A stretch of DNA of 57,863 nt, taken from the IMG/VR virus record IMGVR_UViG_3300037191_001144, positions 1-57,863 of that record. One strand, given 5' to 3'. The notes under the pieces were generated by a model, which saw only the letters and a program-made list of their open reading frames with translations, did not search any database and was not told where the DNA came from. Of the stretch, positions 12,469 to 42,600 are shown piece by piece. Position numbers and translations under genes: made by a program. Position 1 is the first letter of the stretch. Every line of letters starts with the position of its first letter. This DNA comes from a virus (taxonomy: Duplodnaviria; Caudoviricetes).

Positions 12469-13704
12469 TTAATATAACACAGTAATTGTTCCATTGAACT
12501 CGAACACGCCTGCGTTCATAGAGCTGTGAGCTGTTATAGTATATACGTACACTCCTGCCGCAACGTTTGCGTCCCACTCGTCTAAGTTAGAGGCACTAAT
12601 CCAAACAACCTCCCCCCATCTATTGTATATACGGGTTTCCCATTGATCCCAACAAGCGCCGTCCGCAAACACACCCCATGTATCATTCCACCCATCATCG
12701 TTTGGGGTTACAACATTTGGGGCAAAGATGGAAGTCTCACTACAAGGGAAGTCTTGGTTGCAAGTTTCCCCCGTTTCACAATCTATATATATAGACTCAG
12801 CAACAAACTCGGTTATCGTGTCTGTATTGTAGACGTATATATTCTCATACACTACCGTCTCGACGTACATAGTATCGGTTAAATAAATGTACTGAAGCTC
12901 TATTACCTGTACAGTATCTGGCGGTAATTGGACATATTCTATTAACGTGTCCACTTCATACATATACTCTACTATCTCGACAGTGTCTAACAGAACAACG
13001 GTGTCCCCAGGTAGATATATATAATCCGTTAACCAAAGAGTGTCCGTAGTTACCCACTCAACATCTACGTATTCTATTATAGTATCAGTAAGATATTCAA
13101 CAACATCTACATACACGGTGTCACACGCAGGAAGAGCACAGTTGAGGGCTAAATTGTTGGAAAGATCTACGTCAGGATAGTTCTGAGTCTGAGCCGCAAC
13201 GTTAGGGTTTACGGCCCAACCTCCTATAGATGTGGTAGAGGTTTGTGATAAGTTAATCTGCCATACAACGACCTCAGTGCATAGCGTATCGTTGGATAGC
13301 ATATCAGCCCAACAGTCGTTAGTAGAGCTATTATAATCATACACATTAGCACTCCACGTGTCACCACTTTCTAGTACCTGATTCCCAAATAGGGTAAACA
13401 CCTTAAACGTCCAGCCTGGGTGATTGACTCCAGTTAAGCAATCCATCCAATTGTAATCTAAGCCAGGAGAGTGCAGCCCTAAAACTATATGTGATACTGT
13501 TGTGTTGTTCGCAACATGAGGGCTCCCGCTAGCCTCACAAGAGCTCCCTTCAACGGTAAACTCATTACACCCACAGTTCTCACTGTTGAGAGCCTCGATA
13601 ACTATATCCCCAGTAATAGCATCCCAACTGCTTATACCCACATCGCACTGAGAGAAAAGTGCGCTAGAAAAAAGAGAAAAGAAAAGAAAGAGTTTTATCC
13701 TCAT
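12469..13704 (-). CDS. Secreted protein with T9SS type-B (gliding motility-associated, CHU_C) C-terminal sorting domain
   Basis: Sec signal peptide; DT(V/I/L)-rich repeats; C-terminal IFAPNVVTPNDDGWNDTW...IYNRWGEVV...WD...GVYVYTI...GTITVLY. Confidence 0.8.
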   Translation of the reverse strand: MRIKLFLFFSLFSSALFSQCDVGISSWDAITGDIVIEALNSENCGCNEFTVEGSSCEASGSPHVANNTTVSHIVLGLHSPGLDYNWMDCLTGVNHPGWTFKVFTLFGNQVLESGDTWSANVYDYNSSTNDCWADMLSNDTLCTEVVVWQINLSQTSTTSIGGWAVNPNVAAQTQNYPDVDLSNNLALNCALPACDTVYVDVVEYLTDTIIEYVDVEWVTTDTLWLTDYIYLPGDTVVLLDTVEIVEYMYEVDTLIEYVQLPPDTVQVIELQYIYLTDTMYVETVVYENIYVYNTDTITEFVAESIYIDCETGETCNQDFPCSETSIFAPNVVTPNDDGWNDTWGVFADGACWDQWETRIYNRWGEVVWISASNLDEWDANVAAGVYVYTITAHSSMNAGVFEFNGTITVLY

Positions 13705-16190
13705 GGCGTATCATCTGTTATAATCCACCCCCTACTTATCATAGCGTTCCTTGAGGTGAGGCCTCCTTTTGCAGCTATCGCCAAAGCAAAGTCCGCAGAC
13801 ATATTAGAGGTGTTAGCCGCGTTCCACGTTGCAAGAATCTGATTGTACTCCCCTCCAGTAAGGGTGTTTACCGTGCTAGTTAAAATTCCACTTAGAGCTC
13901 CTGTTCCCGTAGCCTGAGTAATATCCCAGTACCTCATACTAGCATATACAGAAGATGGTAAAACCGTAGTGGATAAGAAAAAATCGCTCAAGTCTGTTGC
14001 ACTAGAAGTATCTAACGACCCAGAAGCAGGCCACGTTACACTCGTTAGATAATAGCACTCACCGAAAAACCACTTCATATCCGTAACGTTGGAGGTATTC
14101 CAATTAGACAAGTCAATAGAGGTGATCTCTGATCTATAGAACATAGATTGCATATCTGTAACATCATCAACGTCCCAGTTGGTAACATCTATAGTAGCTA
14201 TTTTTAATCCGATAAACGTAGATCTGCACAGTAATAAAGAAGAGGTGTTCCAATTCGAAACATCTAAGACGCTTAACGTACCAACATTACCTACATACTG
14301 AAACGTTTGTCGCATATCCGTTACATTTGAAACATTCCAACTTGAGACATCTAACAGGGAGAGATCATAACAATTTTGAAAGGTTCTAAGCAGACTAGTA
14401 ACGAGACCCGTATTCCAATTAGATACATTCAAGGAGATAAGGTCTCCACAGGAAGCAAACGAATCTATCATGCTCGTTACGCTCGACACGTCCCATCCCG
14501 AGACATCTATAGTAGTTAACACACTACAGGATTGAAAGACGTAATCCATACCTACTAAAGAGGAGGTGTTCCAGTTTGTAGCCCCCGTAGCTCCGAGAGA
14601 GGTAAGGGAGGTGCAGTTTCTAAACATACGGGTGATATCGGTTACATTAGTCATAACCCAAGAAGAAACATCTATAGTAGTAAGAGAATTGCAATCATTA
14701 AACGCGGCTGACGTGTCAAGCATACTCGTGGAGACACCCCAAGTAGATACGTCTAATACAGTCAAGTCATAACACTGAGAAAACATAGAATCTATAGTAG
14801 TACAGCTAGACATATCCCAACCCGAGACGTCTAACGTAGTAAGAGAATTACAACCATTAAACATTAGATCTGCCAACCCTAAAAGAGGAGTACTCCAAAG
14901 GGCCGTGTCTATAGTAGTAAGAGAAGTACAATTATAAAACATTGAACCAACATCAGTTACTGTAGACATATCCCATCCCGCAACATCGGCACTCACCAAG
15001 TTTGCACAACTTGAAAAAGCTTCATGAGCATCTTCTAGGCTGTCTGTTTGCCACAGAGAACAAGGGGCCGTAGTTATAGTAGTACACGATCTGACAAAAC
15101 CATCTAAAGAAATTACCTCACGCACGTCCCATGCCTCCACCTTTAGGCTTGTCAAAACGGTACAGTACCCAAACATATTACCAACATCAATTACTGTAGA
15201 CATATCCCAAAGGGCCGTATCTATTTCTGTTAACTGTTCACAACTCTGGAATAGAGACCTCATTCTTTTTACCCCACTAACATCCCAGTCAGATACGTCT
15301 AGAGTTGTAAAGGAAGAACAGTTCTTAAAGAGACTGCTTAAATTTTTATTAACAACAGGATTTGTAAAGCGCCACCCACTCACATCTATATTCCCTAAAC
15401 TTACGCAGCCGTTAAAGCAGGACTCCATATTAATCATGCTGCTCAGAGTCCAGTTAGACACATCTATAGACGTGAGGCCAGAGTTACTGAACATAAATCC
15501 TGCAGCACTCAAATTAGAGACGTCCCAAGCAGAGGCGTCCACGGTAGTGAGGCTAGAGCAGGTACGGAAAGCGCTGACCATGGTGGTTACTATACTCATA
15601 TCCCAGTCGGAGGTATCTATAGTAGACAAAGAAGTACAACTGGAGAAGGTAGAGTTCATGGTGGTTACTATACTCATATCCCAGTCGGAGGTATTTATAG
15701 TAGACAAAGAAGTACAATTGTAGAAGGCAGAGTTCATATTTGTCGATTCCTGAGTTAACGTATCTGTAGCGGTACAATCTAAGTTTGTACACCCCTGGAA
15801 CCAACCCGAAGCAAACCCTGTAGTAAAGGTCCCCCAGTTAGAGACGTTGAGTATCTTTAGCTTATCCCCTGTATTACTAAAGGCCCAGACCTTAATAACT
15901 CCAAATATTGTTATATCGTACTGACCCGCCGCATCATACGTATGCTTCGCCTGAGAAGCAGACGTAATAGTTTCTGAAGTACCATCCCCCCAAGTGACAA
16001 CAAAGTCGTATGTACCATAAGATTTTAGAGGAAGGGTAATATTATCCGCAGCCGAGCTGCCAGTAGAAACATTAGAAGTCTCCCAAGTAGAGCGGAATCC
16101 CTGAGGTCCGTCTCCGCCGCCTCCAGGGTCGCCCCCGCCGCCACTAGTTGTCCCTGAATCTATCGCTATACGTGTTGCTATTCCGAGCAT
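13701..16190 (-). CDS. BspA-like/DUF285 26-residue repeat surface or receptor-binding protein
   Basis: Many W(D/N)(V/T/M)SxVTxMxxMFxxCxxLxxxD repeats after a PKD-like VTWGDG domain. Confidence 0.82.
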   Translation of the reverse strand: MLGIATRIAIDSGTTSGGGGDPGGGGDGPQGFRSTWETSNVSTGSSAADNITLPLKSYGTYDFVVTWGDGTSETITSASQAKHTYDAAGQYDITIFGVIKVWAFSNTGDKLKILNVSNWGTFTTGFASGWFQGCTNLDCTATDTLTQESTNMNSAFYNCTSLSTINTSDWDMSIVTTMNSTFSSCTSLSTIDTSDWDMSIVTTMVSAFRTCSSLTTVDASAWDVSNLSAAGFMFSNSGLTSIDVSNWTLSSMINMESCFNGCVSLGNIDVSGWRFTNPVVNKNLSSLFKNCSSFTTLDVSDWDVSGVKRMRSLFQSCEQLTEIDTALWDMSTVIDVGNMFGYCTVLTSLKVEAWDVREVISLDGFVRSCTTITTAPCSLWQTDSLEDAHEAFSSCANLVSADVAGWDMSTVTDVGSMFYNCTSLTTIDTALWSTPLLGLADLMFNGCNSLTTLDVSGWDMSSCTTIDSMFSQCYDLTVLDVSTWGVSTSMLDTSAAFNDCNSLTTIDVSSWVMTNVTDITRMFRNCTSLTSLGATGATNWNTSSLVGMDYVFQSCSVLTTIDVSGWDVSSVTSMIDSFASCGDLISLNVSNWNTGLVTSLLRTFQNCYDLSLLDVSSWNVSNVTDMRQTFQYVGNVGTLSVLDVSNWNTSSLLLCRSTFIGLKIATIDVTNWDVDDVTDMQSMFYRSEITSIDLSNWNTSNVTDMKWFFGECYYLTSVTWPASGSLDTSSATDLSDFFLSTTVLPSSVYASMRYWDITQATGTGALSGILTSTVNTLTGGEYNQILATWNAANTSNMSADFALAIAAKGGLTSRNAMISRGWIITDDTP
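15579..15737. repeat. Near-perfect 78-bp tandem duplication (one 26-aa repeat)
   Basis: CATGGTGGTTACTATACTCATATCCCAGTCGGAGGTAT... starts at 15579 and at 15657. Confidence 0.9.
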
Positions 16191-17061: not shown

Positions 17062-17287
17062 TTATAGTATATGACTCGTTATGAATAAGCATAGAGTGTC
17101 CCGCATGTCTGTCGTAGTATATGCTGTCCTTGGACTTTATTTCCTGGACCCCATCGCCTGTCTGGACTACCTCTCCTTTTTTATACCTAAAAGAATTGGC
17201 GTCCTCGTTAGAAAGGATAAGTCCTGACTTAGTCTTTATCTCCTCCTCGATAGCTTTAATTAAAATATATTTTCCTACTGGCTTCAT
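17030..17287 (-). CDS. groES: Co-chaperonin GroES
   Basis: MKPVGKYILI...TKSGLIL...GEVVQTG...ITERDVVVVL; coupled to groEL. Confidence 0.88.
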   Translation of the reverse strand: MKPVGKYILIKAIEEEIKTKSGLILSNEDANSFRYKKGEVVQTGDGVQEIKSKDSIYYDRHAGHSMLIHNESYTIITERDVVVVL

Positions 17288-18870
17288 GCTCGTGCGTGTG
17301 TTACAATTGCGTTAGTACTTAAGATAGTAGTCGCTACACTCACCGCGTTGCGGAGGGCGTGCTTAGTTACTTTCAATGGATCTATAATCCCCATCTCGTA
17401 CATATCCCCAGCACACTCGTTCTTGACGTCGTACCCCCAGCTATCGTTCTTCGCGTTATGGAGAAGGGACGAAGGCTTGCCCGCGTTCTCTAAGATCTGT
17501 ACCGCAGGAGCCGAGAGAGTATGTTGTAGGATAGCGGTAGCCGCATCCTTATTCTTCCCACTGATAGGTGAATCCCCTAAGGCCATGCCCTCGTTATATA
17601 ACGCGAGGCCCCCACCTGGAAGGATACCCTCCTGAAGGGCCGAGCGCACCGCGCAGACCGCATCGTCCACCCTGTCGAACTTCTCCTTCTGCTCTATGTC
17701 CGAGACTCCCCCAACATATATACACCCTATACCGCCAGCTAAACTCGCTATACGGGAGTTGATAAAGTCACGCTCCCCCTTGTTCTTAGTACTAGACTGC
17801 TGCTCCTTGAGCTGCTCGATCCGAGTAGAGATCTCATCCGTGACCTGGTTGCTCTTGATAAGTACCGCACTCTCCTTCCCCACTATAGCCTTGTCCGCGT
17901 GACCGAGGTCCCCAAGGTTTATAAGGGAGAGATCGTCTCCCGTCTTCTCACTGAAATATTTTGCACCTACCGCAAGGGCGATGTCTTGCATGAGCTCATG
18001 CTGGCGGAACCCAAAACTCGGCGGGGGGACAGCACACAGCTGTAACCCATTACGCGCAACGTTGGCCGCTAAAGTGTTCACTACGTTCCCACTACACGGA
18101 GCAATAAGCAGAAGCTTCAGCCCTCCCTTGATAATAGGCTCGAGCACCGTCTGGATCTGGAGTACGTTGTTAACCTCGTGGTCACACACCAGAACACGCA
18201 CATCCTCTAAGACACACTCATCCTTCTTGTGGTTGTTGATGAAAAGATTGGACGAGTACCCACGGTCCATGCGGATACCCGTCGTGACCTCAGCATACGT
18301 CTTGTCCGTTTGGGAACGCTCGACAGTAACAATACCGTCTGACCCGACCTCGTTATATGCAGAGGCTATAATCTTCCCTAGCTCCTTGTCATTATTGGCA
18401 GAGATAGTAGCAACGTCTAAAAGACGAGACTTAGTAATCTTCTTGGACTTCTTCTCTAGACGAGCAATCACCTGCTCACTAAGGTCCTGGATAAATCGAA
18501 TCACCTCCGTCTTGTTATGATCAGGAGAGATGTACTTCATCCCAGCCTTGACTAACGCCTCCGTTAATACGATCGCCGTAGTAGTCCCGTCCCCCGCTAC
18601 ACTAGCAGTCTTCTCCGAGGCCTGCTTCATCATGCGAACCGCTAAGTTCTCTACCGCGTCGTTGAGGTCTATACTCCGAGCTACAGTGACGCCGTCCTTT
18701 GTGACAGTCATACCCTGTAAATGGTCCGTAGACTCTATAAGAACAGTCTGGCCACGAGGACCTAACGTACTCTTCACTGCCTTGGATAGCGTAGTGATAC
18801 CGTTAATAAGTTTTGTGCGGGCCTCGTCGTCGAAGCACAGTTCCTTTGGGATGTATCCTAACTCACTCAT
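17284..18870 (-). CDS. groEL: Chaperonin GroEL
   Basis: AVKSTLGPRG, VTKDGVTVA, AGDGTTTA, GILPGGG, GIIDPLKV. Confidence 0.97.
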   Translation of the reverse strand: MSELGYIPKELCFDDEARTKLINGITTLSKAVKSTLGPRGQTVLIESTDHLQGMTVTKDGVTVARSIDLNDAVENLAVRMMKQASEKTASVAGDGTTTAIVLTEALVKAGMKYISPDHNKTEVIRFIQDLSEQVIARLEKKSKKITKSRLLDVATISANNDKELGKIIASAYNEVGSDGIVTVERSQTDKTYAEVTTGIRMDRGYSSNLFINNHKKDECVLEDVRVLVCDHEVNNVLQIQTVLEPIIKGGLKLLLIAPCSGNVVNTLAANVARNGLQLCAVPPPSFGFRQHELMQDIALAVGAKYFSEKTGDDLSLINLGDLGHADKAIVGKESAVLIKSNQVTDEISTRIEQLKEQQSSTKNKGERDFINSRIASLAGGIGCIYVGGVSDIEQKEKFDRVDDAVCAVRSALQEGILPGGGLALYNEGMALGDSPISGKNKDAATAILQHTLSAPAVQILENAGKPSSLLHNAKNDSWGYDVKNECAGDMYEMGIIDPLKVTKHALRNAVSVATTILSTNAIVTHARA

Positions 18871-19716: not shown

Positions 19717-20181
19717 GTAGCAAAGATAGTGAAAATTTTTTTACGAGATATCTGGAAGTTGAGGGTTCTAGGTGATGTGACAGGCTGTGTGCCTCATATG
19801 AAAGTCGATGTTGATTCCGATGGGGGTCTTCGGTTTCAGAATTTCTTGTGGATTGTTTCAGGATTCCGCATAGCCTCGCGCCCTCTGTCTATGGTCTCTG
19901 TCTGTGCGCCCTATGTACGCTACGTCTCACGCATCCCCGAGCATTAAGTGCAGTAGTAATGGTATAGGTCTCACGCCCCGTATCCCGCCCCCTGAAGGGG
20001 GTAAACAAGGGAGGAAGGTGTACACAACCTCTCCTTAACACCTCCCCGACCCCTCACCTCACAAAATACTTTCAGGTAAGACATCTCTCTGTATCCCCTA
20101 TCTATGCTCATTCTACGCACATTGAATAAACTATTTTCGAAAGTTTCTTGCACTCATAGCATCAATACCCATTCTGTGAAC

Positions 20182-20189
20182 TATATTTG
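20182..20189 (+). promoter_or_regulatory. Putative early promoter -7 element (TATATTTG)
   Basis: TAnnTTTG immediately upstream of the first + strand early gene; -33 element unclear. Confidence 0.55.
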
Positions 20190-20217
20190 CACAAACGTTA
20201 AACAAATCATATACACC

Positions 20218-20289
20218 ATGCCTATACTACTACTCATCACTACCATCTTCACAATAATCGCATTCATTATTTCATTCATCACAGATTAA
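20218..20289 (+). CDS. 23-aa membrane peptide
   Basis: MPILLLITTIFTIIAFIISFITD after an A/C-rich leader. Confidence 0.4.
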   Translation: MPILLLITTIFTIIAFIISFITD

Positions 20290-20300
20290 TACACAACACA

Positions 20301-20552
20301 ATGACTATAACTGCCCACAACAAGATGCACCAGAGCAATGTCAACAAGGCTACGCAATGGTTAGAGAAGCACAACACATTCAATGCAGAGCGAGACCTAA
20401 TCGAGGATAGCTTAGAAGGTTATCCTGACGAGGATACTGCTTGGAGACGCATCAACAAGAAGTGCGAGGATTCATACGACAAGTACTTGTGCTATATGGA
20501 TGAGCTACCAAAGCGTGAGCAAGACCAAATAACCAAATCAGAATTATACTGA
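20301..20552 (+). CDS. Early hypothetical protein
   Basis: 83 aa, AATACACAACACA-ATG leader. Confidence 0.7.
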   Translation: MTITAHNKMHQSNVNKATQWLEKHNTFNAERDLIEDSLEGYPDEDTAWRRINKKCEDSYDKYLCYMDELPKREQDQITKSELY

Positions 20553-20602
20553 GTAACACTGACGAGTCCTTACTGGACGAAACGTCGAGAGACGTCTGTT
20601 AC
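20553..20602 (+). ncRNA. Type I hammerhead ribozyme HH1 (cleaves after GUC, C20596)
   Basis: GUAACA-CUGACGA-GUCC(UUACU)GGAC-GAAA-CGUC(GAGA)GACG-UC-UGUUAC: full catalytic core and three stems. Confidence 0.93.
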
Positions 20603-20626
20603 ATTTATTCATCAATACACAACACC

Positions 20627-20875
20627 ATGAACAAATCCGAAGAACTAAACTACAAACTGCATCTAGACCGAATTGACGTGTGCTACAAGGTAGACGCAAA
20701 AGGAAGACCATATTACCAAGAACTTTTCCACGAGATGATATCTTGCATTATTGATGCGGAGCTATCAACTACTGAGGAGAACAGAGAGCTAAGGAAAGCG
20801 CTTAAGGTTGCTACTATTCAGATGAAAATTCAAGACCTTGAGAACGAACTTGACACCTTAACAATCACTGAGTAA
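20627..20875 (+). CDS. Early hypothetical protein flanked by HH1 and HH2
   Basis: 82 aa; stop TAA lies inside HH2 stem I. Confidence 0.7.
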   Translation: MNKSEELNYKLHLDRIDVCYKVDAKGRPYYQELFHEMISCIIDAELSTTEENRELRKALKVATIQMKIQDLENELDTLTITE

Positions 20876-20921
20876 CACTGACGAGACTTCAATAGTCGAA
20901 ACGCTGAGAAGCGTCTGTTAC
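20872..20921 (+). ncRNA. Type I hammerhead ribozyme HH2 (cleaves after GUC, C20915)
   Basis: GUAACA-CUGACGA-GACU(UCAAU)AGUC-GAAA-CGCU(GAGA)AGCG-UC-UGUUAC; stems II and III covary with HH1. Confidence 0.93.
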
Positions 20922-20948
20922 AAATTTTATTCACTAATACACAATACA

Positions 20949-21173
20949 ATGAACAATTTTAGAGTAGTAAGAACGAGAATGATTGACATCGATAATGTAC
21001 ACATAGACATACACTTTGGAAGTGATGACAAAATAGTCGCATCAGGTCAGTACAACATCCGTACCAATTGGGCACACGTTACTCGTGAGGAGGAGTATGA
21101 ACGTATGCTTGGCGATGATTGGGAGGACCAGATGCAAGAGGCCATCGAAGAGAGGACGATAGAGATAGGTTAA
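20949..21173 (+). CDS. Early hypothetical protein
   Basis: 74 aa after the conserved leader. Confidence 0.7.
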   Translation: MNNFRVVRTRMIDIDNVHIDIHFGSDDKIVASGQYNIRTNWAHVTREEEYERMLGDDWEDQMQEAIEERTIEIG

Positions 21174-21179
21174 CCAACA

Positions 21180-21226
21180 AGCGGAGTCAGTGCGTGACTC
21201 GAACGGATTCGCTCCCGTTCTCCGCT
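21180..21226 (+). ncRNA. 47-nt three-way-junction, tRNA-elbow-like RNA, copy B1
   Basis: AGCGGA-GUCA(GUGCG)UGAC-UC-GAACGG(AUUCGCUC)CCGUUC-UCCGCU; covaries with B2 and B3. Confidence 0.8.
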
Positions 21227-21255
21227 CTAATTATTATTCACTAATACCCAATACA

Positions 21256-21438
21256 ATGAACGATTTAATTACAATTCAAGGCTTACAAGATGCTCTCAAC
21301 CTTTCAATGAGAGAAGTGAAAGACCTAAGAGATAAGTTAGAGATTACGGAAAAGTATCTCCATAACTATGTTATCCAAGCAGAAAGGACCATAGACACCC
21401 TGATGAAGCCTTATAGCGAGGCAGTACAAACCAAGTAA
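21256..21438 (+). CDS. Early hypothetical coiled-coil protein
   Basis: Start reassigned to ATG 21256 after the conserved leader; stop inside HH3 stem I. Confidence 0.7.
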   Translation: MNDLITIQGLQDALNLSMREVKDLRDKLEITEKYLHNYVIQAERTIDTLMKPYSEAVQTK

Positions 21439-21484
21439 CACTGATGAGACCTGAATGGTCGAAACGTCGTGAGACGTATGTTAC
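21435..21484 (+). ncRNA. Type I hammerhead ribozyme HH3 (cleaves after GUA, A21478)
   Basis: GUAACA-CUGAUGA-GACC(UGAAU)GGUC-GAAA-CGUC(GUGA)GACG-UA-UGUUAC. Confidence 0.93.
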
Positions 21485-21510
21485 AAATTTTATTCACTAA
21501 TCTAATACCT

Positions 21511-21750
21511 ATGACATTACAAGACAAGATTGAACACACAACCGCGATAGCTGATGCTATCCAGCGCAGAGAGGACTACTACACCCTTGAGATTTTAATG
21601 GGTGAAAGCCACCCTTTAGGTTATAGTCCTCAGACATCAGAACTGAGACAAATCGAACTACCTGCACCACAGATTGCAGGTACGATGGTCCAGCGCAGAA
21701 GCTACGCGATGGGCAAAGCTATGGACATCCTTAACACCCTATCACTATGA
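21511..21750 (+). CDS. Early hypothetical protein
   Basis: Start reassigned to MTLQDK after the conserved leader. Confidence 0.65.
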   Translation: MTLQDKIEHTTAIADAIQRREDYYTLEILMGESHPLGYSPQTSELRQIELPAPQIAGTMVQRRSYAMGKAMDILNTLSL

Positions 21751-22022
21751 AAAAACTTTATAGTATACATAGAAAGTGTCACGCCATCTACGAAGAGTTT
21801 GGAGGATACGACTACAACGATAAGATGATTTATCAGCTACGCGGACTCGACGCTGACATCGAAGAGTGTAGCGAGTGTATGGAAGAGTTGTCCAGCCAAA
21901 GAGAAAGAGAGGTACTATACAAAGGGGCTCTTGCTAACGCAGACGCTACTCTCCTATGGTTTGAATGGGTGAAGAAGATGATGGTCCTTAAATCAAAAGA
22001 GCCATCTGCCATCTTTGGTTAG
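21747..22022 (+). CDS. Early hypothetical protein
   Basis: 91 aa, ATGA-coupled. Confidence 0.65.
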   Translation: MKKLYSIHRKCHAIYEEFGGYDYNDKMIYQLRGLDADIEECSECMEELSSQREREVLYKGALANADATLLWFEWVKKMMVLKSKEPSAIFG

Positions 22023-22029
22023 ACCTACA

Positions 22030-22076
22030 AGCGGAGGTAGTGCGTACCTCGAGATGATTCGCCTCGTCTCTCCGCT
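22030..22076 (+). ncRNA. 47-nt three-way-junction RNA, copy B2
   Basis: AGCGGA-GGUA(GUGCG)UACC-UC-GAGAUG(AUUCGCCU)CGUCUC-UCCGCU. Confidence 0.8.
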
Positions 22077-22105
22077 CTAATTATTATTCACTAATCTAAT
22101 ACAAT

Positions 22106-22261
22106 ATGAATTTAGGATACATAGAACACAGAAAGGGCAAGTACTCTGTCCTCGTAGACATTATAGATTTAGGGCCTTTCGGAATGTCGCCTTGCTTCAG
22201 CAAAGGCTTTGACACACGAACAGAGGCAGAAGAACACTCGAACAAATTAAATTTAAAATGA
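22106..22261 (+). CDS. 51-aa early protein (not in ORF track)
   Basis: MNLGYIEHRKGKYSV... directly after the conserved leader. Confidence 0.6.
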   Translation: MNLGYIEHRKGKYSVLVDIIDLGPFGMSPCFSKGFDTRTEAEEHSNKLNLK

Positions 22262-22410
22262 TGACTACACAAGAGAAATTCGAATACACAAGAGGTTTGG
22301 AGAAGCAAATCGAAAAGCAAGAAGCATTAATCGAACACCTTAGAAAGACCATACTTGCTTACTCAGAAAGAATGGAAACTATAACTAAAATCAAAAACCT
22401 ATTAAAATGA
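22258..22410 (+). CDS. 50-aa early protein (not in ORF track)
   Basis: MMTTQEKFEYTRG...; ATGA-coupled on both sides. Confidence 0.55.
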   Translation: MMTTQEKFEYTRGLEKQIEKQEALIEHLRKTILAYSERMETITKIKNLLK

Positions 22411-22646
22411 AATACAAATCAGTATACGCAGTACACCACCTAAGCCATCTACTTGGCGATTGTGAGACCGATCTATTTTTCTCAGAGGCTGACGCGAGAG
22501 CGTTCTTTCTTAAGCTAATGATGGAGGTCGAAGACTCTTCAGACGAGGTTGAGATACTAACCGACGAAGCAGATGAATTGTACTACTGCAATGAGTCTTC
22601 AGGAGAGTACATCAGAATCGTAATAGAACAAATTAAAATCAAATAA
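22407..22646 (+). CDS. Early acidic hypothetical protein
   Basis: 79 aa, ATGA-coupled. Confidence 0.65.
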   Translation: MKYKSVYAVHHLSHLLGDCETDLFFSEADARAFFLKLMMEVEDSSDEVEILTDEADELYYCNESSGEYIRIVIEQIKIK

Positions 22647-22652
22647 AACACA

Positions 22653-22740
22653 TACACGTAATCTGTGGTGGTTCGCAGATGGATTGTTACTCTTTACGCA
22701 TAGAGAATAGCAATGGGGTTCGACTCCCCTACGTGTACCA
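22653..22740 (+). ncRNA. 8/4 tRNA-like RNA C1, ending in CCA
   Basis: Acceptor UACACGUA/UACGUGUA, T arm GGGG(UUCGACU)CCCC, 7-bp D-like arm with GG loop, elongated anticodon-like arm. Confidence 0.7.
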
Positions 22741-22766
22741 ATTAATATTCACTAATACATAATACA

Positions 22767-23054
22767 ATGACAGATAATTTAGGACAATACACGCTCCGCG
22801 AAGTGGAGAAGTTATTTAAGAAGTTAGACCGAATGAATATCGCAGTCCAGAAGAACTACGGGTACGACTTCGAGCACGGAGACAGACCCGCTTTGTGGAT
22901 TTGGACCGAGGGCATTACGGAGGAGACAGAGATGCATATAGACTACTATGCCAATCACGGATGCCCGAGTGAGAAACTTGCTCAGGTCTTATATGACGCT
23001 GAGTCTTATGCTGAGTGGGATAACTCTGCGGTATGTTGTATTTACAAAGTTTAA
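22767..23054 (+). CDS. Early hypothetical protein
   Basis: 95 aa after the conserved leader. Confidence 0.7.
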   Translation: MTDNLGQYTLREVEKLFKKLDRMNIAVQKNYGYDFEHGDRPALWIWTEGITEETEMHIDYYANHGCPSEKLAQVLYDAESYAEWDNSAVCCIYKV

Positions 23055-23059
23055 TCAGT

Positions 23060-23645: not shown

Positions 23646-23692
23646 AGCAGTGGTAGTGCGTACCGAGAAGAGATTCGCCCCTCTTCACTGCT
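23646..23692 (+). ncRNA. 47-nt three-way-junction RNA, copy B3
   Basis: AGCAGU-GGUA(GUGCG)UACC-GA-GAAGAG(AUUCGCCC)CUCUUC-ACUGCU; compensatory changes in P1 and P3. Confidence 0.8.
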
Positions 23693-24396: not shown

Positions 24397-24506
24397 TACA
24401 CGTAGCATTGTAGGTTTGCAAAAACTTCAGGATACAATGTAGGCGTTCCCTCAATAGGTTTTCTGAATTTCCTATACGGGTGCGAGGTTCGACTCCTCTA
24501 CGTGTA
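24397..24506 (+). ncRNA. 8/4 tRNA-like RNA C2 with enlarged interior
   Basis: Same acceptor as C1 (UACACGUA/UACGUGUA); T arm GAGG(UUCGACU)CCUC; internal stems GCAUUGUA/UACAAUGU and a GCAA tetraloop hairpin. Confidence 0.68.
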
Positions 24507-24529
24507 CTCATTAATTAAACTCAAATAAA

Positions 24530-27532: not shown

Positions 27533-27617
27533 ATAGTAAGGCACGACTTGGAGGATGCTGGGTGTAGCGATTGTTGGTTCAGGAGTTACACACATGGGTT
27601 CGATTCCCACTTACTAT
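27533..27617 (+). ncRNA. 8/4 tRNA-like RNA C3
   Basis: Acceptor AUAGUAAG/CUUACUAU, T arm UGGG(UUCGAUU)CCCA, internal stem GUGUAGC/GUUACAC. Confidence 0.65.
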
Positions 27618-27636
27618 CTAAAAATAAATTAAACAT

Positions 27637-36674: not shown

Positions 36675-39600
36675 TCATTCTCTTATAGATTCTAAGTACT
36701 CTTCCCTTTGCTCGTCTTGATACGCCTTCTCCTCGGCTTCGTACTCCTCCTGTTCGGGGTCGTAGTATAGCTCCTCAAGGTATGCCTCTAACTCCTGCTC
36801 CTCTTTGTACTGTTCAGGGAAATACTCTTTCATCTCTTTCTTTGTGGTTTTCTTCTTCTTCTTTTTCTTCTTCTTTTCTTCAGGTCCATCTATAACGTAG
36901 TCGCTATACTGAAGGACTCGTAGCATAGCCTCCTTGGGTTCCATCCCCCCCTCGGTAAGCTTAGTGAAGTTGTTAAAGATCTTCTCTATATTTGAGGCTG
37001 GGATTCCAAACATAGCAAGGCCCTCGTTTATTGCTTTGCGTGTCCACTTCTCCTTAGTCTCAGGGGTCTTGGCCTTCGCTGCGTTATTCATATATAGGGC
37101 TACGTTCTTTGGCATATCCAGGGCAGGGATAGCTGGCATGTTAAATGCCCACGGCTTTCCTTGTATAGCGTCAGCTACCATACCTATAACATCCCCTGCT
37201 ATAAATAGGGAGTTGAAGTTACCAATTATCGCGGCTCTCATCATATCCTCCTCGTCCTCCTCGTCCCAGTCAGATCCAAGAGGGAACCCTAGGGATACCC
37301 ACTGGAAGAACATAGGCATAACAAAGTGGTAGGTGAGTATGGTTCTCGCATTACTAATCAACGTCCCCTTCCCCTCCTTACCGCCTGATCTAATAATTCT
37401 AGAAAGGTTTCTAAGAGACCTAAAGACTTTACGGTTGTATTGTTTTGGCGTAGTCATGAACATGTTAAGAACCCTCATGTACCCGTCACCCGTTTGATAA
37501 AGGTCTTTGTTCTGAATGTCTGATGACTGCTGTGTGTTCTTAGTGTCCTTCTCAAACCTGCGTATAGCATAGTCGATAGCCTGCTGCTCCGTAGCTCCAG
37601 GGTTATTCTTTTTAAACTGTGCCTTATGGTAAGAGTAGTTCGGCATACCCCCAATATATATCGCGGCCTTGTCCCCGAACTTAGTGGTCCACATAGCCAT
37701 ATTTATAAGAGCATTTTGAATGGGTTGAGGCATGAATTTCTGAACCCTCTCTGGAGCGTATGTCTCTATGGCCTTCATGATACTCTGGTAGTTACGGTCG
37801 TCCATGTATACTGAGTTAGCCTTGATCTCTTTAAAGATCTGTCTCATCTGTACTATATTAACAGCTGCGTACTTTACCCAGTTTGCGTATCCTATATCAC
37901 TTGCGTAGGTGAAGAACGAGGTAAGCTGCTTTATCATAACGACAGGGTTAAGTCCTAGGCGAGAGGTAATGAATGCGCTATTCATAAAGTTCACAAACCT
38001 TGCCCCCTTGTTTACCTTACCCTTGTTTGCTACACGCTCTATGCTAAGTCGAACCCCCTCTAGCACATCCGATCCGTATATTGCTTTAATAGTGGCGGCC
38101 ATCTTAGGGTTTAGGAGAAGCTTATTGATATAGTTAATAGGCTCTGCCATGCCCGCGAGGTGGTTCATCTCCTCTATGTAGAACATTAGGTTTGCCGTTC
38201 CGTCTACCCCTTCCTTGATAGGGTCTTTGGTCTGCACTCGATACTTCGAGGACCCTGCTGTTACTACAGTGTTGGACCCTTTGTTTGCCAGCAGGTCGAG
38301 GTCTTGTATTACCTGGCCATCATGCATCAAGGGTCCTGCATAGAACTCGTTCCATGGCATGTCTGTTTTGTATACCTTTAGGTACGCCTCATTAAAGATA
38401 GGGTATACCATAGGGAAGAACTCGTCCACCTGCCAGTCTGCAAATGCCTTTGTCTCTGGGTCTAGTGTGGATGTAAGTTCCCCCATGATACGTTCGTAAT
38501 CTTTCCCAAACCTAGACTCGAAAGAGGGGTGGTTAGATGGGTCCTTAAATTGATTGTATAGATAGTACGCCTCGCCCTGAGACATCGATATCTCCTGGTT
38601 TCTCTTAGCCTCTCTTAGGTCTACCTTATTCTCAGACGTAGGGTTGTCATCGTAGGTTTTCTGAGCCTTATCAACGGCAGCCTGGTCTATATATATTCCC
38701 GTCTTGTTAACGTTAGCTAATGCCCCTACCTTAAACTTCCACAACTTCCCCCACAACTCCTTCATCTTGCCCTCTACTGAGCGCTTCATCATAAGGTTAT
38801 TGGCCTTCTCTACTCGTGTCCCCTCGTCGATCCTGTCCACCACCTGCTGATCTGTGATGCCACCGAATATCTCTCCTGGGAGTTTAGATATTTTATTTAT
38901 CATCCCTCCCAGATCCTGCTGCTTAAAGAAGTAGTTCTTTACCATGTCGGTAAAGCTCCTTAGCACTCTTACTAATCTGTTTTGTGTTTCTTTTGCTCGG
39001 GCTCTGTTCTTCTTCGCTAATACTTTCAGGTCCACCGCATCGAAATTTATGTCCCCTTTCTCGTGGATAACTTTGCCATCGTCGTCTAGTACGTCCTCCT
39101 CGTATAGAGGGAGGTCCTCCCCTGTAATGTCCTTATGTATCTCCTTATAGCTCTCGTCAAACTCTGCCTTCTCCTTAGCTAAGGTCTCCTTAAGGTTGCT
39201 TCGTCCCCCGTCTACTAGTCCTTTTATAGCTGCGTATGCGCGGTCTAAAGCAATCGCCTTATTAGGGTCATTGTCCTCCATCAACATAGCATTATTGAGA
39301 TTAATAGCTGCGATCAATCCCTCCATCTGCTGCCTCTCTTCTGGGGTGGTCTCCATCTTGTTGGCTAATTCGTTGAACTCTTCCAGGAGCTGAACGTTTC
39401 TATCATTAACCTCCTTTGCGAGAACTGTCTTAGCAAACTTAATATTAGAGATCAAGTTCTTCACAACTCTTCGCGTTGTATTATCTATGCTTGTCCCCTT
39501 TAGTCTTCCGCTCTGCTTACTCTCATATGGCTTAAGGATTTTGCTTATAGCGCGAGAGAGTATCCCTACATTTTTCTTTGTAGAAAGCTGTATCACCTCA

Positions 39601-42600
39601 TGCATTAGGCCGTTCATATCCTTACTTGTTGCTTGGGCTATCCTACGTGCTAGGCTCAGGGCCTCCTGCTTAGAGTACACTGTCTTCGGTAGCGTCTGAC
39701 GCATGAATCGTAGTAGCTCTCTCTTCGCCTCCTGTAGTTGGCGGGCCCCTTGGTTACGGAAACGTACCATCTGGCGTAGCTTAGTTAAAGCCTGACGCAT
39801 GTTCTTCGTTGGTCGTACACCTAAAGTTTTTTGTAGCTCGTTCACCATCTCTGCCTGGAGTGTGGCGGCGTCTTTCATTGCTACGTCCTTGCCCTTTACC
39901 TTGCGGGTATCTGCTAGTTTTTTATATGCAGGGTGTTCCATTAGGCGCTCGATAGCTAGGTCCATTATCTCCTGGTCAGAAAGCTTCGCCTTCTTCGTCG
40001 CGTTAGACTTCTCTAGCTTTGTCTCAAAGGCTCCTACCGCCTTGTCTACTTCTACCTTCGCGGATATATTCTCTAGTCTTTTTATTTCGTATAGCTCCTT
40101 AACCTTCGCGTCAACCTCGCTCTTTGAGCGGGGGTTTACCCTCATCTTGTTTGTCTTCTCTACTCGCTCTCGGATCTTACGTTTTATCTCACGCATCTCG
40201 TCACCCGTCTTAACCTTAGCCTTCGTTAGCTCCTTCCTCTTCTCTCTTACCTTAGTCTTTAGTTGAGCCGCGGTCTCCTTCGTCCTCTTGACGTTAGCCT
40301 TTGTCTCCTTTGCTATAAAGTCTTGTATGTTTTTAAACAAACGCAATCCTTCTAGCAGGCCTCCCTCTACCTCAGCAAAACTCTTTGGCAGTTTGGAGAA
40401 TAAATCTACATCAAACTCTAGAAGTTTTTTAACTACATTCTTTGGGATCTTCTTAATCCTGTTAAGGTAACTACCTATAGCTGAGTCCTTTAGTCCCGCT
40501 CCTCTTCCCTCTGTTATCACCTCTTGTATAGAGGCGTCAGCTCCGTCAACATCTAGCTGGAACTTTACTGGGCTACCCTCCTTGTCTAGGACAGGGTCAG
40601 TAAACGTCTCACCCGTAGACCTGTCAGCGGCTACAACTTTAGCCTTACCCTTCTTGTCTGTGACAACCTTCCCCTTTACAGTGAAGCTTGAGTCATCCAT
40701 AGATAAGTACTCTGGGTTCTTAGCGTATACTAATCCTCCTATCTGTATAATTTCTTCTGCCGATCCTAAAGGTTGCCCCGTGCTACGGTCCCAGAAAGAT
40801 GAGTGTCTGAATGGATTCATTCCCACCTGCACCCAGTCAGAATTATTTGCAACCTCCTCAATCATGGACTGAGCATTAGTTCCTACCTCCTCTACCGTGT
40901 TGCCTTCTATAGCTACGGGCTCCCCAAACATCTTAGCGAAGGTCGTCTTGCCCTGTGCCCCTGAAGCTATGTTCGCAGCTATACGTGCGTCTGTTTCAAA
41001 GGTTACGTTCTTAAGTCTTACGGCTGGACCATATGATATAGGCTTCCCCTTAGAGCTAGGCTCATGTACTGTCACGATCCATGCGTTGGATCTAAGGTAT
41101 GCGGGGATGTCTAGTCTAGCCCCTACTCTTTTTAATTTCTTACCTGTATCTGGGTCTACTAATGGAGCTAGGATCTTCTCCGATTGGTTACGGGTCAGGG
41201 CCTTATCCATTCTCTCCCTAGACACGGGTGCAAAGAACTCCTCTATGGGTCCTATAGGGCTGTTCTTAGCCACTATCTTTCTGTAGTCAGCGTTGGTTAT
41301 CTCTCCTCGTAGAAGACGGCTTACAGCCTCCTCTACCTTAGAGGTTCTCTTCGCTATCTTAGACTCCTTCATGTTCATCTCAGGGGTCTCCTTCCATGCG
41401 AGCTGGTACTTTGCTCTACCTGATGGCCCTACTCTAGGAGTTTTATATGCGCCCCCATATGCTGAGTGTGATCTACTCTGCTTAAGTCTTTGAGGGTTAG
41501 ATACTTTAGATTTAAAGTTCCATCCCTTAAGTTTCTCTATGTCAATAGGCTGAGTCGTAGACCTTATCTCATCTATCTTCTTCCATGAGTCGTCCTGTCT
41601 CTGAGTCTTACGTGTGATAGTCTCGCTATCCGTGTGCGCCGTAAAGTTAGAGAGGTAGTCCCACTCCCCGTCATTAGTTGCTTTCCTCCAGAAGTTTACA
41701 AAGTGTTGCCCGTTATTAAACTTCCGCTCTCTAGTTACACGGTCTCCCCATGTGCTCTCCTCCTCCCACGTTACAGTAAATTCTTTCTTAGGAAGCTTCG
41801 CTGGGTTTAGTGGGTCGGTTATATTATTGTTACTTATGTAAGCGTCAGGTAGGATGTCTCCCTTCTTGTATTTAGTGTCCTCCTCTAGCTTAGACAGGTC
41901 ATTACCCTGGTCGTCTAGTTGGAACTTTACTTTAGCTCCCTTAACCTGTATGTCTTTAGGAACCTTTGCTACGTACTGTCCTCCCATAGCAGAACGTGCC
42001 GCCAGAGGTTTAGTTCTTTCTCCTAACGGAGTTTGGTTTGCTTCAAGTGAGGCAGGCTTTGCATTTGGGTATATTTTTCTTACGTCAACAGCCTTGTCAA
42101 ATACCATCAATGGTTTCCCTGGGATCGCCCAAGGGTAAGCTGGGTGGTACCCTGGGTCTCCTTCCTTTAACTTAAAAGGCTTCGCCCCTTTCTCAAACTC
42201 TATCGCTGAGACAACGTCTCCATACCCCACACCTTTTAGAGATGGGTCATTAACTACCTCAGATATATTTGTTGGTACACTTTTTAAAGGAGTAAAAGGA
42301 GAGATGTTAAACTTTTCATACGACTCTTTGCTTAAAAATGTTTTGGCAAAACTCCCTCGTTGCTCAAAATTGAGAGGAGACAATAAGGTTTGAAGTTCTT
42401 CTATACTACTTATCTGACTCGGTAGCCCTTTCTTTTTCAGGCCCTTTGCTACCGTCGTTAGCTTTAACTTTCTGTTGATATAGTTAATCATCTCTTTTGG
42501 AGACGCACCATTCTCAATAGCATATGCCACCTCAGCGTTTAGGTAGTCATAGAACTGCATGTTCCCCGTGATTCCGTCAGGGGCCTGGGACATTACAAGG

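What the first reader, a model, noticed from the sequence alone, without database searches (positions are those of the whole stretch)
20597..21478. Ribozyme-flanked genes could become circular mRNAs
Stem I is identical in all three hammerheads. The excised HH1-HH2 fragment (20597-20915, 319 nt, one complete ORF plus leader) starts with 5'-OH UGUUAC and ends with GUAACA-core-2',3'-cP. Its own ends can therefore rebuild a complete hammerhead, poised for self-ligation or RtcB ligation. The HH2-HH3 fragment (563 nt, two ORFs plus B1) has the same property. This parallels retrozyme and viroid-like circle formation; here it is inference.
Basis: inference. Interest (0 to 1): 0.72.

Follow-up and report, generated by a model that had tools for sequence, protein, structure and literature searches.

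The report
Hammerhead-punctuated phage operon, circles unproven
Three self-cutting RNA motifs sit between small genes of a marine phage and most likely chop one long transcript into single-gene messages; the pieces could in principle close into rings, but relatives manage the same genes without paired ribozymes, so rings are probably not the point.

Summary
Three type-I hammerheads lie at 20553-20602, 20872-20921 and 21435-21484 (+). They have a full catalytic core, compensatory changes in stems II and III, and an identical stem I (GUAACA/UGUUAC). The cut sites, the fragment lengths (319 and 563 nt) and the ORF content are as stated. Folding predicts that each excised fragment re-pairs its ends and rebuilds the hammerhead.

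The circular-mRNA reading is chemically possible but not favoured. The hammerheads are one of three interchangeable element types in the same slot, between a stop codon and a conserved roughly 30-nt leader. The others are an undescribed three-helix RNA ('B', with strong covariation and no Rfam match) and tRNA-like elements.

- Related phages carry orthologous genes with 2, 1 or 0 hammerheads, and B stands in their place.
- B1 sits inside the 563-nt fragment.
- Other phage arrays work with unlike stem I.
- A ring would keep an active ribozyme.
- The phage encodes no RNA ligase.
- Perreault et al. 2011 described such arrays, raised the circle idea and detected none.

Best reading: intercistronic mRNA punctuation that gives linear messages. 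No raw RNA reads were available, so circles are neither shown nor excluded.

The parts
20553..20602 (+). HH1, type-I hammerhead; cuts between 20596 and 20597
   Evidence: (RF00163 31.0 bits, E 1e-4)
20872..20921 (+). HH2, type-I hammerhead; cuts between 20915 and 20916; the TAA stop of the upstream ORF lies in stem I
   Evidence: (27.6 bits); the hammerhead fold appears in the 319-nt fold but not in the 50-nt MFE
21435..21484 (+). HH3, type-I hammerhead with a GUA site; cuts between 21478 and 21479
   Evidence: z -2.62; 20.6 bits to the hammerhead part of RF03152
20597..20915 (+). Fragment 1 (319 nt): 30-nt leader, ORF 20627-20875 (82 aa), then the HH2 body
20916..21478 (+). Fragment 2 (563 nt): leader, ORF 20949-21173 (74 aa), B1, leader, ORF 21256-21438 (60 aa), then the HH3 body
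21180..21226 (+). B1, three-helix structured RNA inside fragment 2
   Evidence: 86.6 bits; no Rfam match
22030..22076 (+). B2, second copy of the B element
23646..23692 (+). B3, third copy with compensatory changes in all three helices
22652..22738 (+). TLS1, tRNA-like element (8-bp acceptor-like stem, T-arm GGUUCGACUCC) in the same slot
   Evidence: tRNA-Sec model 31.8 bits, cut-off 47; ARAGORN calls none
24397..24507 (+). TLS2, larger tRNA-like element with the same acceptor-stem and T-arm sequence as TLS1
   Evidence: no tRNA call
27533..27618 (+). TLS3, tRNA-like element after the ParB-like gene
   Evidence: (T-arm only)
20927..20948 (+). Conserved leader (TTATTCACTAAT..AATACAATG). Copies also start at 20605, 21234, 21490, 22084 and 22745, each following an HH, a B or a TLS
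20301..20552 (+). ORF A upstream of HH1; its TGA stop abuts stem I
21511..21750 (+). ORF E downstream of HH3; its orthologues in relatives follow an HH or a B

Best explanation
The three hammerheads are intercistronic punctuation marks in a long early-region transcript of a tailed phage of a Bacteroidota host. Each sits directly on or after the stop codon of one small gene, and 30-33 nt ahead of the next start codon. Self-cleavage splits the transcript.

The upstream message ends in the folded ribozyme body with a 2',3'-cyclic phosphate. The downstream message starts with a 5'-OH on a conserved, unstructured, A/U-rich leader. The products are linear single- or few-gene mRNAs.

The same job is done at other junctions by B elements and tRNA-like elements. 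These are probably cut by host tRNA-processing enzymes (RNase P/Z); that step is inferred.

Shown here: the motifs, their placement, covariation, and interchangeability among relatives. Inferred: cleavage in vivo, co-transcription, and what the new ends do for stability or translation. Occasional ring closure by a host RtcB is possible as a by-product.
For: 1. The motifs are genuine.

2. The slot is shared. HH cut site to ATG is 30, 33 and 32 nt. For B1 and TLS1, the base after the closing stem is 29 nt ahead of the ATG. The same leader follows all three element types at six sites.

3. The elements are interchangeable in relatives. Hammerheads per record are 3 (window), 1, 1, 2, 0, 0. B per record is 3 (window), 1, 1, 2, 5 for G001, G003, G004, G005. 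The window reads HH2-C-B1-D-HH3-E. G001 reads HH-C-B-E. G005 reads B-C-B-x-B-E. G003 reads HH-?-HH-E-B. Orthologues are 49-68% identical.

4. The pattern is general. Of 108 distinct type-I hammerheads from an arbitrary sample of viral contigs, 99 have an ORF of at least 40 codons starting 6-60 nt after the cut (median 26 nt). In 87 an upstream open frame ends within -12 to +10 nt of the start of stem I (no shuffled control).

5. In print: Perreault 2011 describes multiple hammerheads flanking single genes or short blocks in prophages, cleavage of about 2-kb constructs in vitro, and processing into single-gene mRNAs as the favoured reading (passages).

6. No plus-strand terminator-like site falls between the array genes; the 5 of 11 listed sites that are on the plus strand lie inside ORFs or upstream of the array (weak).
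Against: - Cleavage was not tested. All Rfam scores are below gathering.
- Co-transcription is not shown, and no convincing promoter was found.
- Plain processing does not by itself explain why stem I stays identical while stems II and III have diverged. Within arrays, identity is 78.5% for stem I against 61.5% and 65.1% for stems II and III.
- In 20 non-redundant arrays, 19 of 36 neighbouring pairs are fully cross-compatible, against 601 of 13678 (4.4%) for pairs from different loci. Of the 11 pairs with identical stem I, 10 differ in both stem II and stem III. This fits selection on a shared stem I, which the circle idea would predict.
- The conserved leader does not force stem-I identity. 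L151 keeps the leader with three different stems I.
Confidence: 0.6

Rival explanations
1. Functional circular mRNAs. After double cleavage, the shared stem I brings the ends of a cassette together. Host RtcB, or the reverse hammerhead reaction, seals a 319-nt or 563-nt ring, which bacterial ribosomes translate from the internal leader.
For: - Stem I is identical in 3 of 3 hammerheads.
- The ends pair in the MFE and centroid folds, with probability about 0.73 and 0.98 for 5 of 6 stem-I pairs.
- Neighbouring hammerheads in other phage arrays are cross-compatible in 19 of 36 pairs against 4.4% for unrelated pairs, and 5 of 20 arrays have one stem I throughout.
- Type-I hammerhead monomers of about 350 nt are circularised 30-80% by RtcB in vitro, against 1-3% by self-ligation (PMC7229834, passages).
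- RtcB is present in 10 of 14 control genomes, including a Bacteroidota species.
Against: - Relatives keep orthologous genes with one hammerhead or none.
- B1 lies inside fragment 2.
- 15 of 20 arrays lack a uniform stem I.
- Neither fragment folds better than shuffles (z -0.72 and -0.89).
- The predicted ring keeps stem I paired at about 0.8, so it should re-cut. Ligated RNAs are cut off again by ribozymes that keep their active fold (PMC8782182, passage).
- Both ORFs end in a stop codon, and the ring lengths are not multiples of 3.
- The phage encodes no RtcB or RNA ligase.
- Perreault 2011 looked for circular or spliced products and found none (data not shown there).
Confidence: 0.12
2. Translation-coupled switch or decay control. 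The upstream stop codon lies in or against stem I, so a terminating ribosome unfolds the ribozyme. Cleavage would then report low translation of the upstream gene and tune the ratio or lifetime of neighbouring messages, rather than acting constitutively.
For: - The stop codons are at 20550-20552 (abutting stem I), 20873-20875 and 21436-21438 (inside stem I).
- In the survey, 87 of 108 hammerheads have an upstream frame ending at -12 to +10 of stem I. In 27 the stop is the UGA of the core, and in 10 it sits at stem-I positions 4-6.
- Perreault 2011 raises regulated cleavage for phage hammerheads.
Against: Tight packing alone would place stops there in a gene-dense phage, and no control was run. 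B and the TLS elements occupy the same slot without a comparable overlap. There are no kinetic data.
Confidence: 0.13
3. Recombination scaffolds. The repeated HH/B-plus-leader modules matter mainly as short homologies at which small gene cassettes are swapped, lost or gained between co-infecting relatives. Cleavage is secondary or vestigial.
For: - Gene order and element type differ among relatives exactly at these elements.
- Environmental contigs join window pieces in other orders at HH, B or leader boundaries. One carries a hammerhead with HH2-like stem II and another stem III in front of gene D.
- L014 holds two identical hammerheads.
Against: The catalytic core is intact in every copy, and stems II and III keep pairing through compensatory changes. 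That shows selection on the RNA fold, not only on DNA homology. This reading can hold alongside the best explanation.
Confidence: 0.08

Closest known systems
Clustered hammerhead ribozymes flanking genes in prophages (Perreault et al. 2011, PMC3088659; passages read)
   Same: Several hammerheads on one strand flank single genes or short blocks in a phage genome. The proposed role is cutting a long transcript into single-gene mRNAs. The circular or spliced-product idea is raised there too.
   Different: All hammerheads here are type I and share one stem I. They are mixed with two other element classes (B and tRNA-like) in the same slot, and each is followed by a conserved leader. The examples named in the passages I read (Clostridium, Azorhizobium, Agrobacterium) are other lineages. 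Their sequences are in supplements I could not open.
Retrozymes and metazoan type-I hammerhead circRNAs (Cervera and de la Pena 2020, PMC7229834; passages)
   Same: Pairs of type-I hammerheads release 300-600-nt monomers with 5'-OH and 2',3'-cyclic phosphate ends that a tRNA ligase (RtcB) can close.
   Different: Those RNAs are non-coding, repeated, and abundant as circles. Here the fragments are single-copy, protein-coding and no more structured than shuffles, and no circle has been seen.
tRNA punctuation of mitochondrial polycistronic transcripts (recalled, not from a call)
   Same: Structured RNAs between cistrons are cut to release individual messages. The TLS elements, and possibly B, fit this logic.
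   Different: Here self-cleaving ribozymes share the task, the elements are not functional tRNAs by ARAGORN, and the system is a phage operon.
Type-I hammerheads in 5'-UTRs of RNA viruses needed for translation initiation (PMC13725137; abstract only)
   Same: A hammerhead just upstream of an ORF whose self-cleavage serves expression of the downstream gene. Tandem pairs enclosing 186-399-nt segments are also reported.
   Different: Those are eukaryotic RNA viruses using cap-independent initiation. This is a DNA phage of bacteria.

Membership tests
Hammerhead ribozyme, type I (Rfam RF00163) | Conserved core CUGANGA ... GAAA ... U-H at the cut site, with an A15.1-U16.1 pair | tested here: met
   3 of 3 copies
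Hammerhead ribozyme, type I (Rfam RF00163) | Three helices around the core, with stem I open and stems II and III capped | tested here: met
   MFE fold for HH1 and HH3; for HH2 in the 319-nt context but not when the 50 nt are folded alone
Hammerhead ribozyme, type I (Rfam RF00163) | Helices supported by compensatory changes | tested here: met
   5 of 15 pairs change on both sides, all in stems II and III. Stem I is invariant, but the non-window rows were selected on it.
Hammerhead ribozyme, type I (Rfam RF00163) | Score at or above Rfam's gathering threshold (34 bits) | tested here: not met
   31.0 and 27.6 bits; HH3 not listed
Hammerhead ribozyme, type I (Rfam RF00163) | Self-cleavage | not testable with these tools
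   Needs in vitro transcription
Phage hammerhead arrays (Perreault 2011) | Several hammerheads on one strand flanking single genes or short gene blocks in a phage genome | tested here: met
Retrozyme or viroid-like hammerhead circRNA | Flanking hammerheads whose product ends can pair | tested here: met
Retrozyme or viroid-like hammerhead circRNA | Circular RNA detected | not testable with these tools
   Only assembled contigs were available, no raw reads
Retrozyme or viroid-like hammerhead circRNA | Compact, highly paired fold that holds the ribozyme inactive in the circle | tested here: not met
   z -0.72 and -0.89. Stem I remains paired at about 0.8 in the circular fold.
Retrozyme or viroid-like hammerhead circRNA | Non-coding repeated unit | tested here: not met
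   The fragments hold one and two conserved small ORFs; orthologues of C and E are 49-68% identical
tRNA (for TLS1-3) | Called as a tRNA with an anticodon | tested here: not met
   ARAGORN finds 0 genes. The tRNA-Sec model scores 31.8 bits against 47. For TLS3 only the T-arm matches; TLS2 has no match.
Any Rfam family (for B) | Match to a curated covariance model | tested here: not met
   0 matches at E up to 10 in a 91-nt search

The most novel reading that the evidence does not exclude
The one stem I shared by every hammerhead of this phage lineage is kept so that any ribozyme-bounded cassette can close on itself. A host RtcB then turns the 319-nt and 563-nt pieces into small translatable circular mRNAs. 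These would be the first natural protein-coding ribozyme-made RNA rings in a bacterium-phage system.

A linked possibility is that the B element, which replaces hammerheads at orthologous junctions, is an undescribed self-cleaving ribozyme rather than a substrate of tRNA-processing enzymes.
Probability: 0.12. Interest if true: 0.8.

Novelty: new variant of a known kind. Interest (0 to 1): 0.45.

Why it matters
Gene-flanking hammerheads in phages have been known since 2011, but their purpose is still open. This locus puts ribozymes, an undescribed covarying RNA and tRNA-like elements in one slot, and they swap with each other at orthologous junctions in relatives. That points to a common task: making defined mRNA ends.

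It also gives a clean natural experiment. The same genes occur behind an HH, behind a B, or with no paired ribozyme, which can separate 'processing' from 'circularisation'. B is a concrete candidate for either a minimal RNase P/Z signal or a new ribozyme. If circles did form, they would be a natural model for ribozyme-made translatable circRNA in bacteria.

Tried and rejected
RNA evidence. The look-up of sequencing runs gave three metatranscriptome runs with small shares (0.05-0.06) and four runs of unknown kind (0.21-0.29). All are held as contigs. Read laying (90% likeness, runs X1-X4) laid 9, 6, 9 and 18 records, mostly 90-99% alike. These are relatives, not this phage.
- No joint at 20915 to 20597 was listed.
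- One joint, '21485 to 20926, goes back 560', appeared in X4 only (kind unknown, letters between not known). I read it as a relative's hammerhead in front of a gene-C homologue that was placed on the paralogous HH3, not as a back-splice.
- Other 'goes back' or 'skips' joints fall at HH, B or leader boundaries and fit cassette re-ordering at the DNA level.
- Contigs cannot show ends, strand or circles, so this gives no verdict either way. Parts without cover mean nothing.

Other dead ends.
- blastn of 20200-22100 against GenBank phages: no match.
- Earlier-findings look-up: not open.
- Sigma-70-type promoter scan: 17 found against 22.2 expected.
- A Bacteroidota-type pattern (motif recalled) gave 1 match against 0.88 expected, and elsewhere in the window. 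A lone TATATTTG at about 20183 is only a hint.
- Loop II to leader pseudoknot: complementary in HH3, partly in HH2, not in HH1. Judged by eye and dropped.
- First viral-contig scan for B was too loose: 118 or more stretches, and only 5 hits in 3 viral-contig loci passed the structure filter (8 hits with the window's own three). A second scan had a wrong gap length and was corrected. The model R1 then found B in only two further contigs.
- Pfam and PHROGs on 10 small array proteins: 0 of 10 with a family.
- The GC-rich non-coding stretch 19740-20100 has z +0.48 and is not found in 4 relatives.
- Literature searches found no paper reporting circular RNAs made from phage hammerhead arrays. One search found nothing on tRNA-like plus ribozyme punctuation in phages. 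The library lacks most subscription journals.
- The supplements of Perreault 2011 (array figures, alignments) could not be opened and may hold related arrays.

Full report
WHAT IS THERE. The window is a 57,863-bp IMG/VR virus record, estimated 94% complete. It is a tailed phage: large terminase, P22-like portal, virion structural protein and a GroEL-like chaperonin. One protein carries a type IX secretion C-terminal domain (CHU_C, E 6.8e-14) and the primase is BT4734-like. Both point to a Bacteroidota host; this is an inference.

The plus strand from about 20.2 to 27.6 kb is a run of small ORFs with no Pfam or PHROG family (0 of 10 tested).

THE OBSERVATION. Reading the sequence confirms three type-I hammerheads at 20553-20602, 20872-20921 and 21435-21484.
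- Each has the core CUGANGA / GAAA / U-H, capped stems II and III, and an open stem I of GUAACA/UGUUAC in all three.
- The core pattern occurs 3 times against 0.64 expected, and 0 of 100 shuffles reach 3.
- The full pattern gives 3 forward, 0 reverse and 0 in the reversed control.
- Across seven related hammerheads, 5 of 15 pairs change on both sides. All of these are in stems II and III, and 99% of cells are paired.

Rfam support is sub-threshold. Nothing reaches gathering. RF00163 scores 31.0 and 27.6 bits against a cut-off of 34. HH3 shows only 20.6 bits to the hammerhead part of RF03152 in a 91-nt search. HH2 folded alone prefers another fold.

The 'ends rebuild a hammerhead' claim holds in silico. 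The MFE and centroid of both fragments pair the 5' UGUUAC with the 3'-proximal GUAACA. Pair probabilities are about 0.73 and 0.98 for 5 of the 6 stem-I pairs, and 0.53 and 0.71 for the sixth.

THE SURROUNDINGS CHANGE THE PICTURE. The same conserved leader (TTATTCACTAAT ... AATACAATG) follows all three hammerheads. It also follows two further element types.

The first is 'B', with copies at 21180-21226, 22030-22076 and 23646-23692. B is a three-helix junction with invariant loops.
- On nine copies (seven distinct) from the window and relatives, 8 of 16 pairs show compensatory change and 98.2% of cells are paired.
- 0 of 500 shuffles reach any measure, and slid controls fall to 40-52% paired.
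- B has no Rfam match, even at E up to 10 in a 91-nt search.

The second is a set of tRNA-like elements: TLS1 22652-22738, TLS2 24397-24507 and TLS3 27533-27618. They have a canonical T-arm and an 8-9-bp acceptor-like stem. ARAGORN calls none of them and Rfam scores them below threshold.

B1 and TLS1 are in one register: closing stem, then a C, then 28 nt, then the ATG. The hammerhead cut sites lie 30-33 nt before the ATG. B's 6-7-bp closing stem, its loop containing UUCG (T-loop likeness is recalled, not tested) and a possible GCG/CGC loop-loop contact suggest a minimal tRNA mimic. That is inference.

RELATIVES. Five related viral records were reached.
- Hammerheads per record: 3 in the window, then 1, 1, 2, 0, 0. 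This comes from RF00163 at E up to 1, checked with the core pattern and inspection of stem II.
- B per record, by the model R1: 3 in the window, then 1 (G001), 1 (G003), 2 (G004), 5 (G005).

Orthologue mapping gives these orders:
- Window: HH2-C-B1-D-HH3-E.
- G001: HH-C-B-E.
- G005: B-C-B-x-B-E.
- G003: HH-?-HH-E-B.

So gene C (66-68% identical orthologues) and gene E (49-60%) are expressed in relatives behind a B, or with only one hammerhead in the genome. Paired hammerheads are not required for these genes, and HH and B behave as equivalents.

A WIDER SAMPLE.
- 86 stretches held at least one structurally valid type-I hammerhead, 127 in all, in 24 arrays.
- Of 108 distinct hammerheads with enough flank, 99 have an ORF of at least 40 codons starting 6-60 nt after the cut (median 26 nt).
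- In 87 of the 108, an upstream frame ends at -12 to +10 nt of stem I. Often the stop is the UGA of the core (27) or a stop at stem-I positions 4-6 (10) (no shuffled control).

So the stop-ribozyme-leader-start layout is general.

- 11 of 36 neighbouring pairs share an identical stem I.
- 10 of those 11 differ in both stem II and stem III.
- 19 of 36 pairs are fully cross-compatible, against 601 of 13678 (4.4%) for pairs from different loci.
- 5 of 20 arrays have one stem I throughout.
- Within arrays, identity is 78.5% for stem I against 61.5% and 65.1% for stems II and III (21 arrays including the window).

This is real evidence that stem I is under extra constraint in some arrays, and it fits the circle idea. 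It also fits three other constraints: a stop codon inside stem I, a leader that begins with the 3' strand of stem I, and family-wide preferred stem-I sequences. GUAACA/UGUUAC recurs in unrelated contigs. In a search that selected on it, 4 of 7 unselected neighbouring hammerheads shared it and 3 did not.

The other 15 of 20 arrays lack a uniform stem I. These include arrays with compensatory changes in stem I (L143, L151, L207, L215).

WHY RINGS ARE NOT FAVOURED.
1. The relatives, as described above.
2. B1 lies inside fragment 2. If B is a processing site, that fragment is cut in two.
3. Neither fragment folds better than shuffles (z -0.72 and -0.89). The predicted circular forms keep stem I paired at about 0.8, and fragment 2 keeps the whole hammerhead in its MFE. 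A ring should therefore cut itself again. The cyPhyRNA-seq paper reports that RNAs ligated by RtcB to ribozyme fragments that keep the active fold are cut off again (PMC8782182, passage).
4. The phage encodes no RtcB, Rnl-type ligase or reverse transcriptase (0 matches each).
5. Both ORFs end in stops, and 319 and 563 are not multiples of three, so nothing points to rolling translation.
6. Perreault et al. 2011 described such arrays, proposed processing into single-gene mRNAs and named circular or spliced products as an alternative. They wrote that they could detect neither, with data not shown (passages).

WHY RINGS ARE NOT EXCLUDED.
- The end chemistry is right.
- RtcB circularises type-I hammerhead monomers of similar size 30-80% in vitro, against 1-3% for self-ligation (PMC7229834, passages).
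- RtcB is common, including in a Bacteroidota control genome.
- The stem-I statistics above stand.
- The only RNA data reachable were assembled contigs of relatives, which give no verdict.
- Those contigs did show something useful. Co-occurring relatives carry the cassettes in other orders, joined at HH, B or leader boundaries. One hammerhead has HH2-like stem II and a different stem III in front of gene D, where the window has B1. Such DNA-encoded joints would mimic back-splice junctions in any read search.

VERDICT. The sequence observation is confirmed. The locus is a phage operon punctuated by three interchangeable classes of RNA element, and the hammerheads are the known class. The most likely mechanism is self-cleavage into linear messages with a protected 3' end and a defined 5' leader (confidence 0.6).

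Functional circular mRNAs remain a minority reading (0.12). By-product rings are plausible if the host expresses RtcB.

Hammerhead arrays and the circle idea are in print. The mix with B and tRNA-like elements, and their swapping at orthologous junctions, were not found in my searches.

Noticed in passing
21180-21226, 22030-22076, 23646-23692: The B element is an undescribed 47-nt three-helix RNA with invariant loops (GUGCG and AUUCGC). 8 of 16 pairs show compensatory change, and it has no Rfam match. It replaces hammerheads at orthologous junctions in relatives, with 5 copies and no hammerhead in G005. It is a candidate minimal RNase P/Z signal or a new ribozyme. With these exact loops it was found only in this phage lineage: the window plus seven other viral contigs.
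   Followed up: yes
22652-22738, 24397-24507, 27533-27618: Three tRNA-like elements have a canonical T-arm and long acceptor-like stems, but ARAGORN does not call them. TLS1 and TLS2 share the same acceptor-stem sequence. Copies are conserved in relatives (L004, L011, L053).
   Followed up: partly
20605, 20927, 21234, 21490, 22084, 22745: A conserved leader (TTATTCACTAAT followed by an A-rich run and the ATG) sits behind every HH, behind B1 and B2, and behind TLS1. Its role is unknown; it could be a translation start region or a factor binding site.
   Followed up: partly
Loci L137-L256 (viral contigs): In an arbitrary sample of phage type-I hammerheads, the upstream stop codon very often lies in stem I or is the UGA of the catalytic core. 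The next ORF starts a median of 26 nt after the cut. One contig (L215) holds at least six hammerheads in about 5 kb.
   Followed up: yes
20550-23055 against contigs of runs X1-X4: Environmental relatives carry the same small genes in other orders, with junctions at HH, B or leader boundaries. One hammerhead is a mosaic of HH2-like stem II and another stem III. This suggests cassette shuffling by recombination within the conserved elements.
   Followed up: partly
20872-20921: HH2 folded alone prefers a non-hammerhead fold (-12.4 kcal/mol). The same alternative appears in the MFE of the circular form of fragment 1.
   Followed up: partly
19717-20190: A G+C-rich non-coding stretch of about 470 nt lies between the divergent gene blocks. 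It folds no better than shuffles (z +0.48) and was not found in four relatives.
   Followed up: partly
12469-16190 (-) and 17284-18870 (-): The phage encodes a protein with a type IX secretion C-terminal domain, a DUF285/BspA-type leucine-rich-repeat protein of 828 aa, and a GroEL-like chaperonin.
   Followed up: partly
36675-47798 (-): A single ORF of 3707 aa has only one weak PHROG match of unknown function.
   Followed up: no
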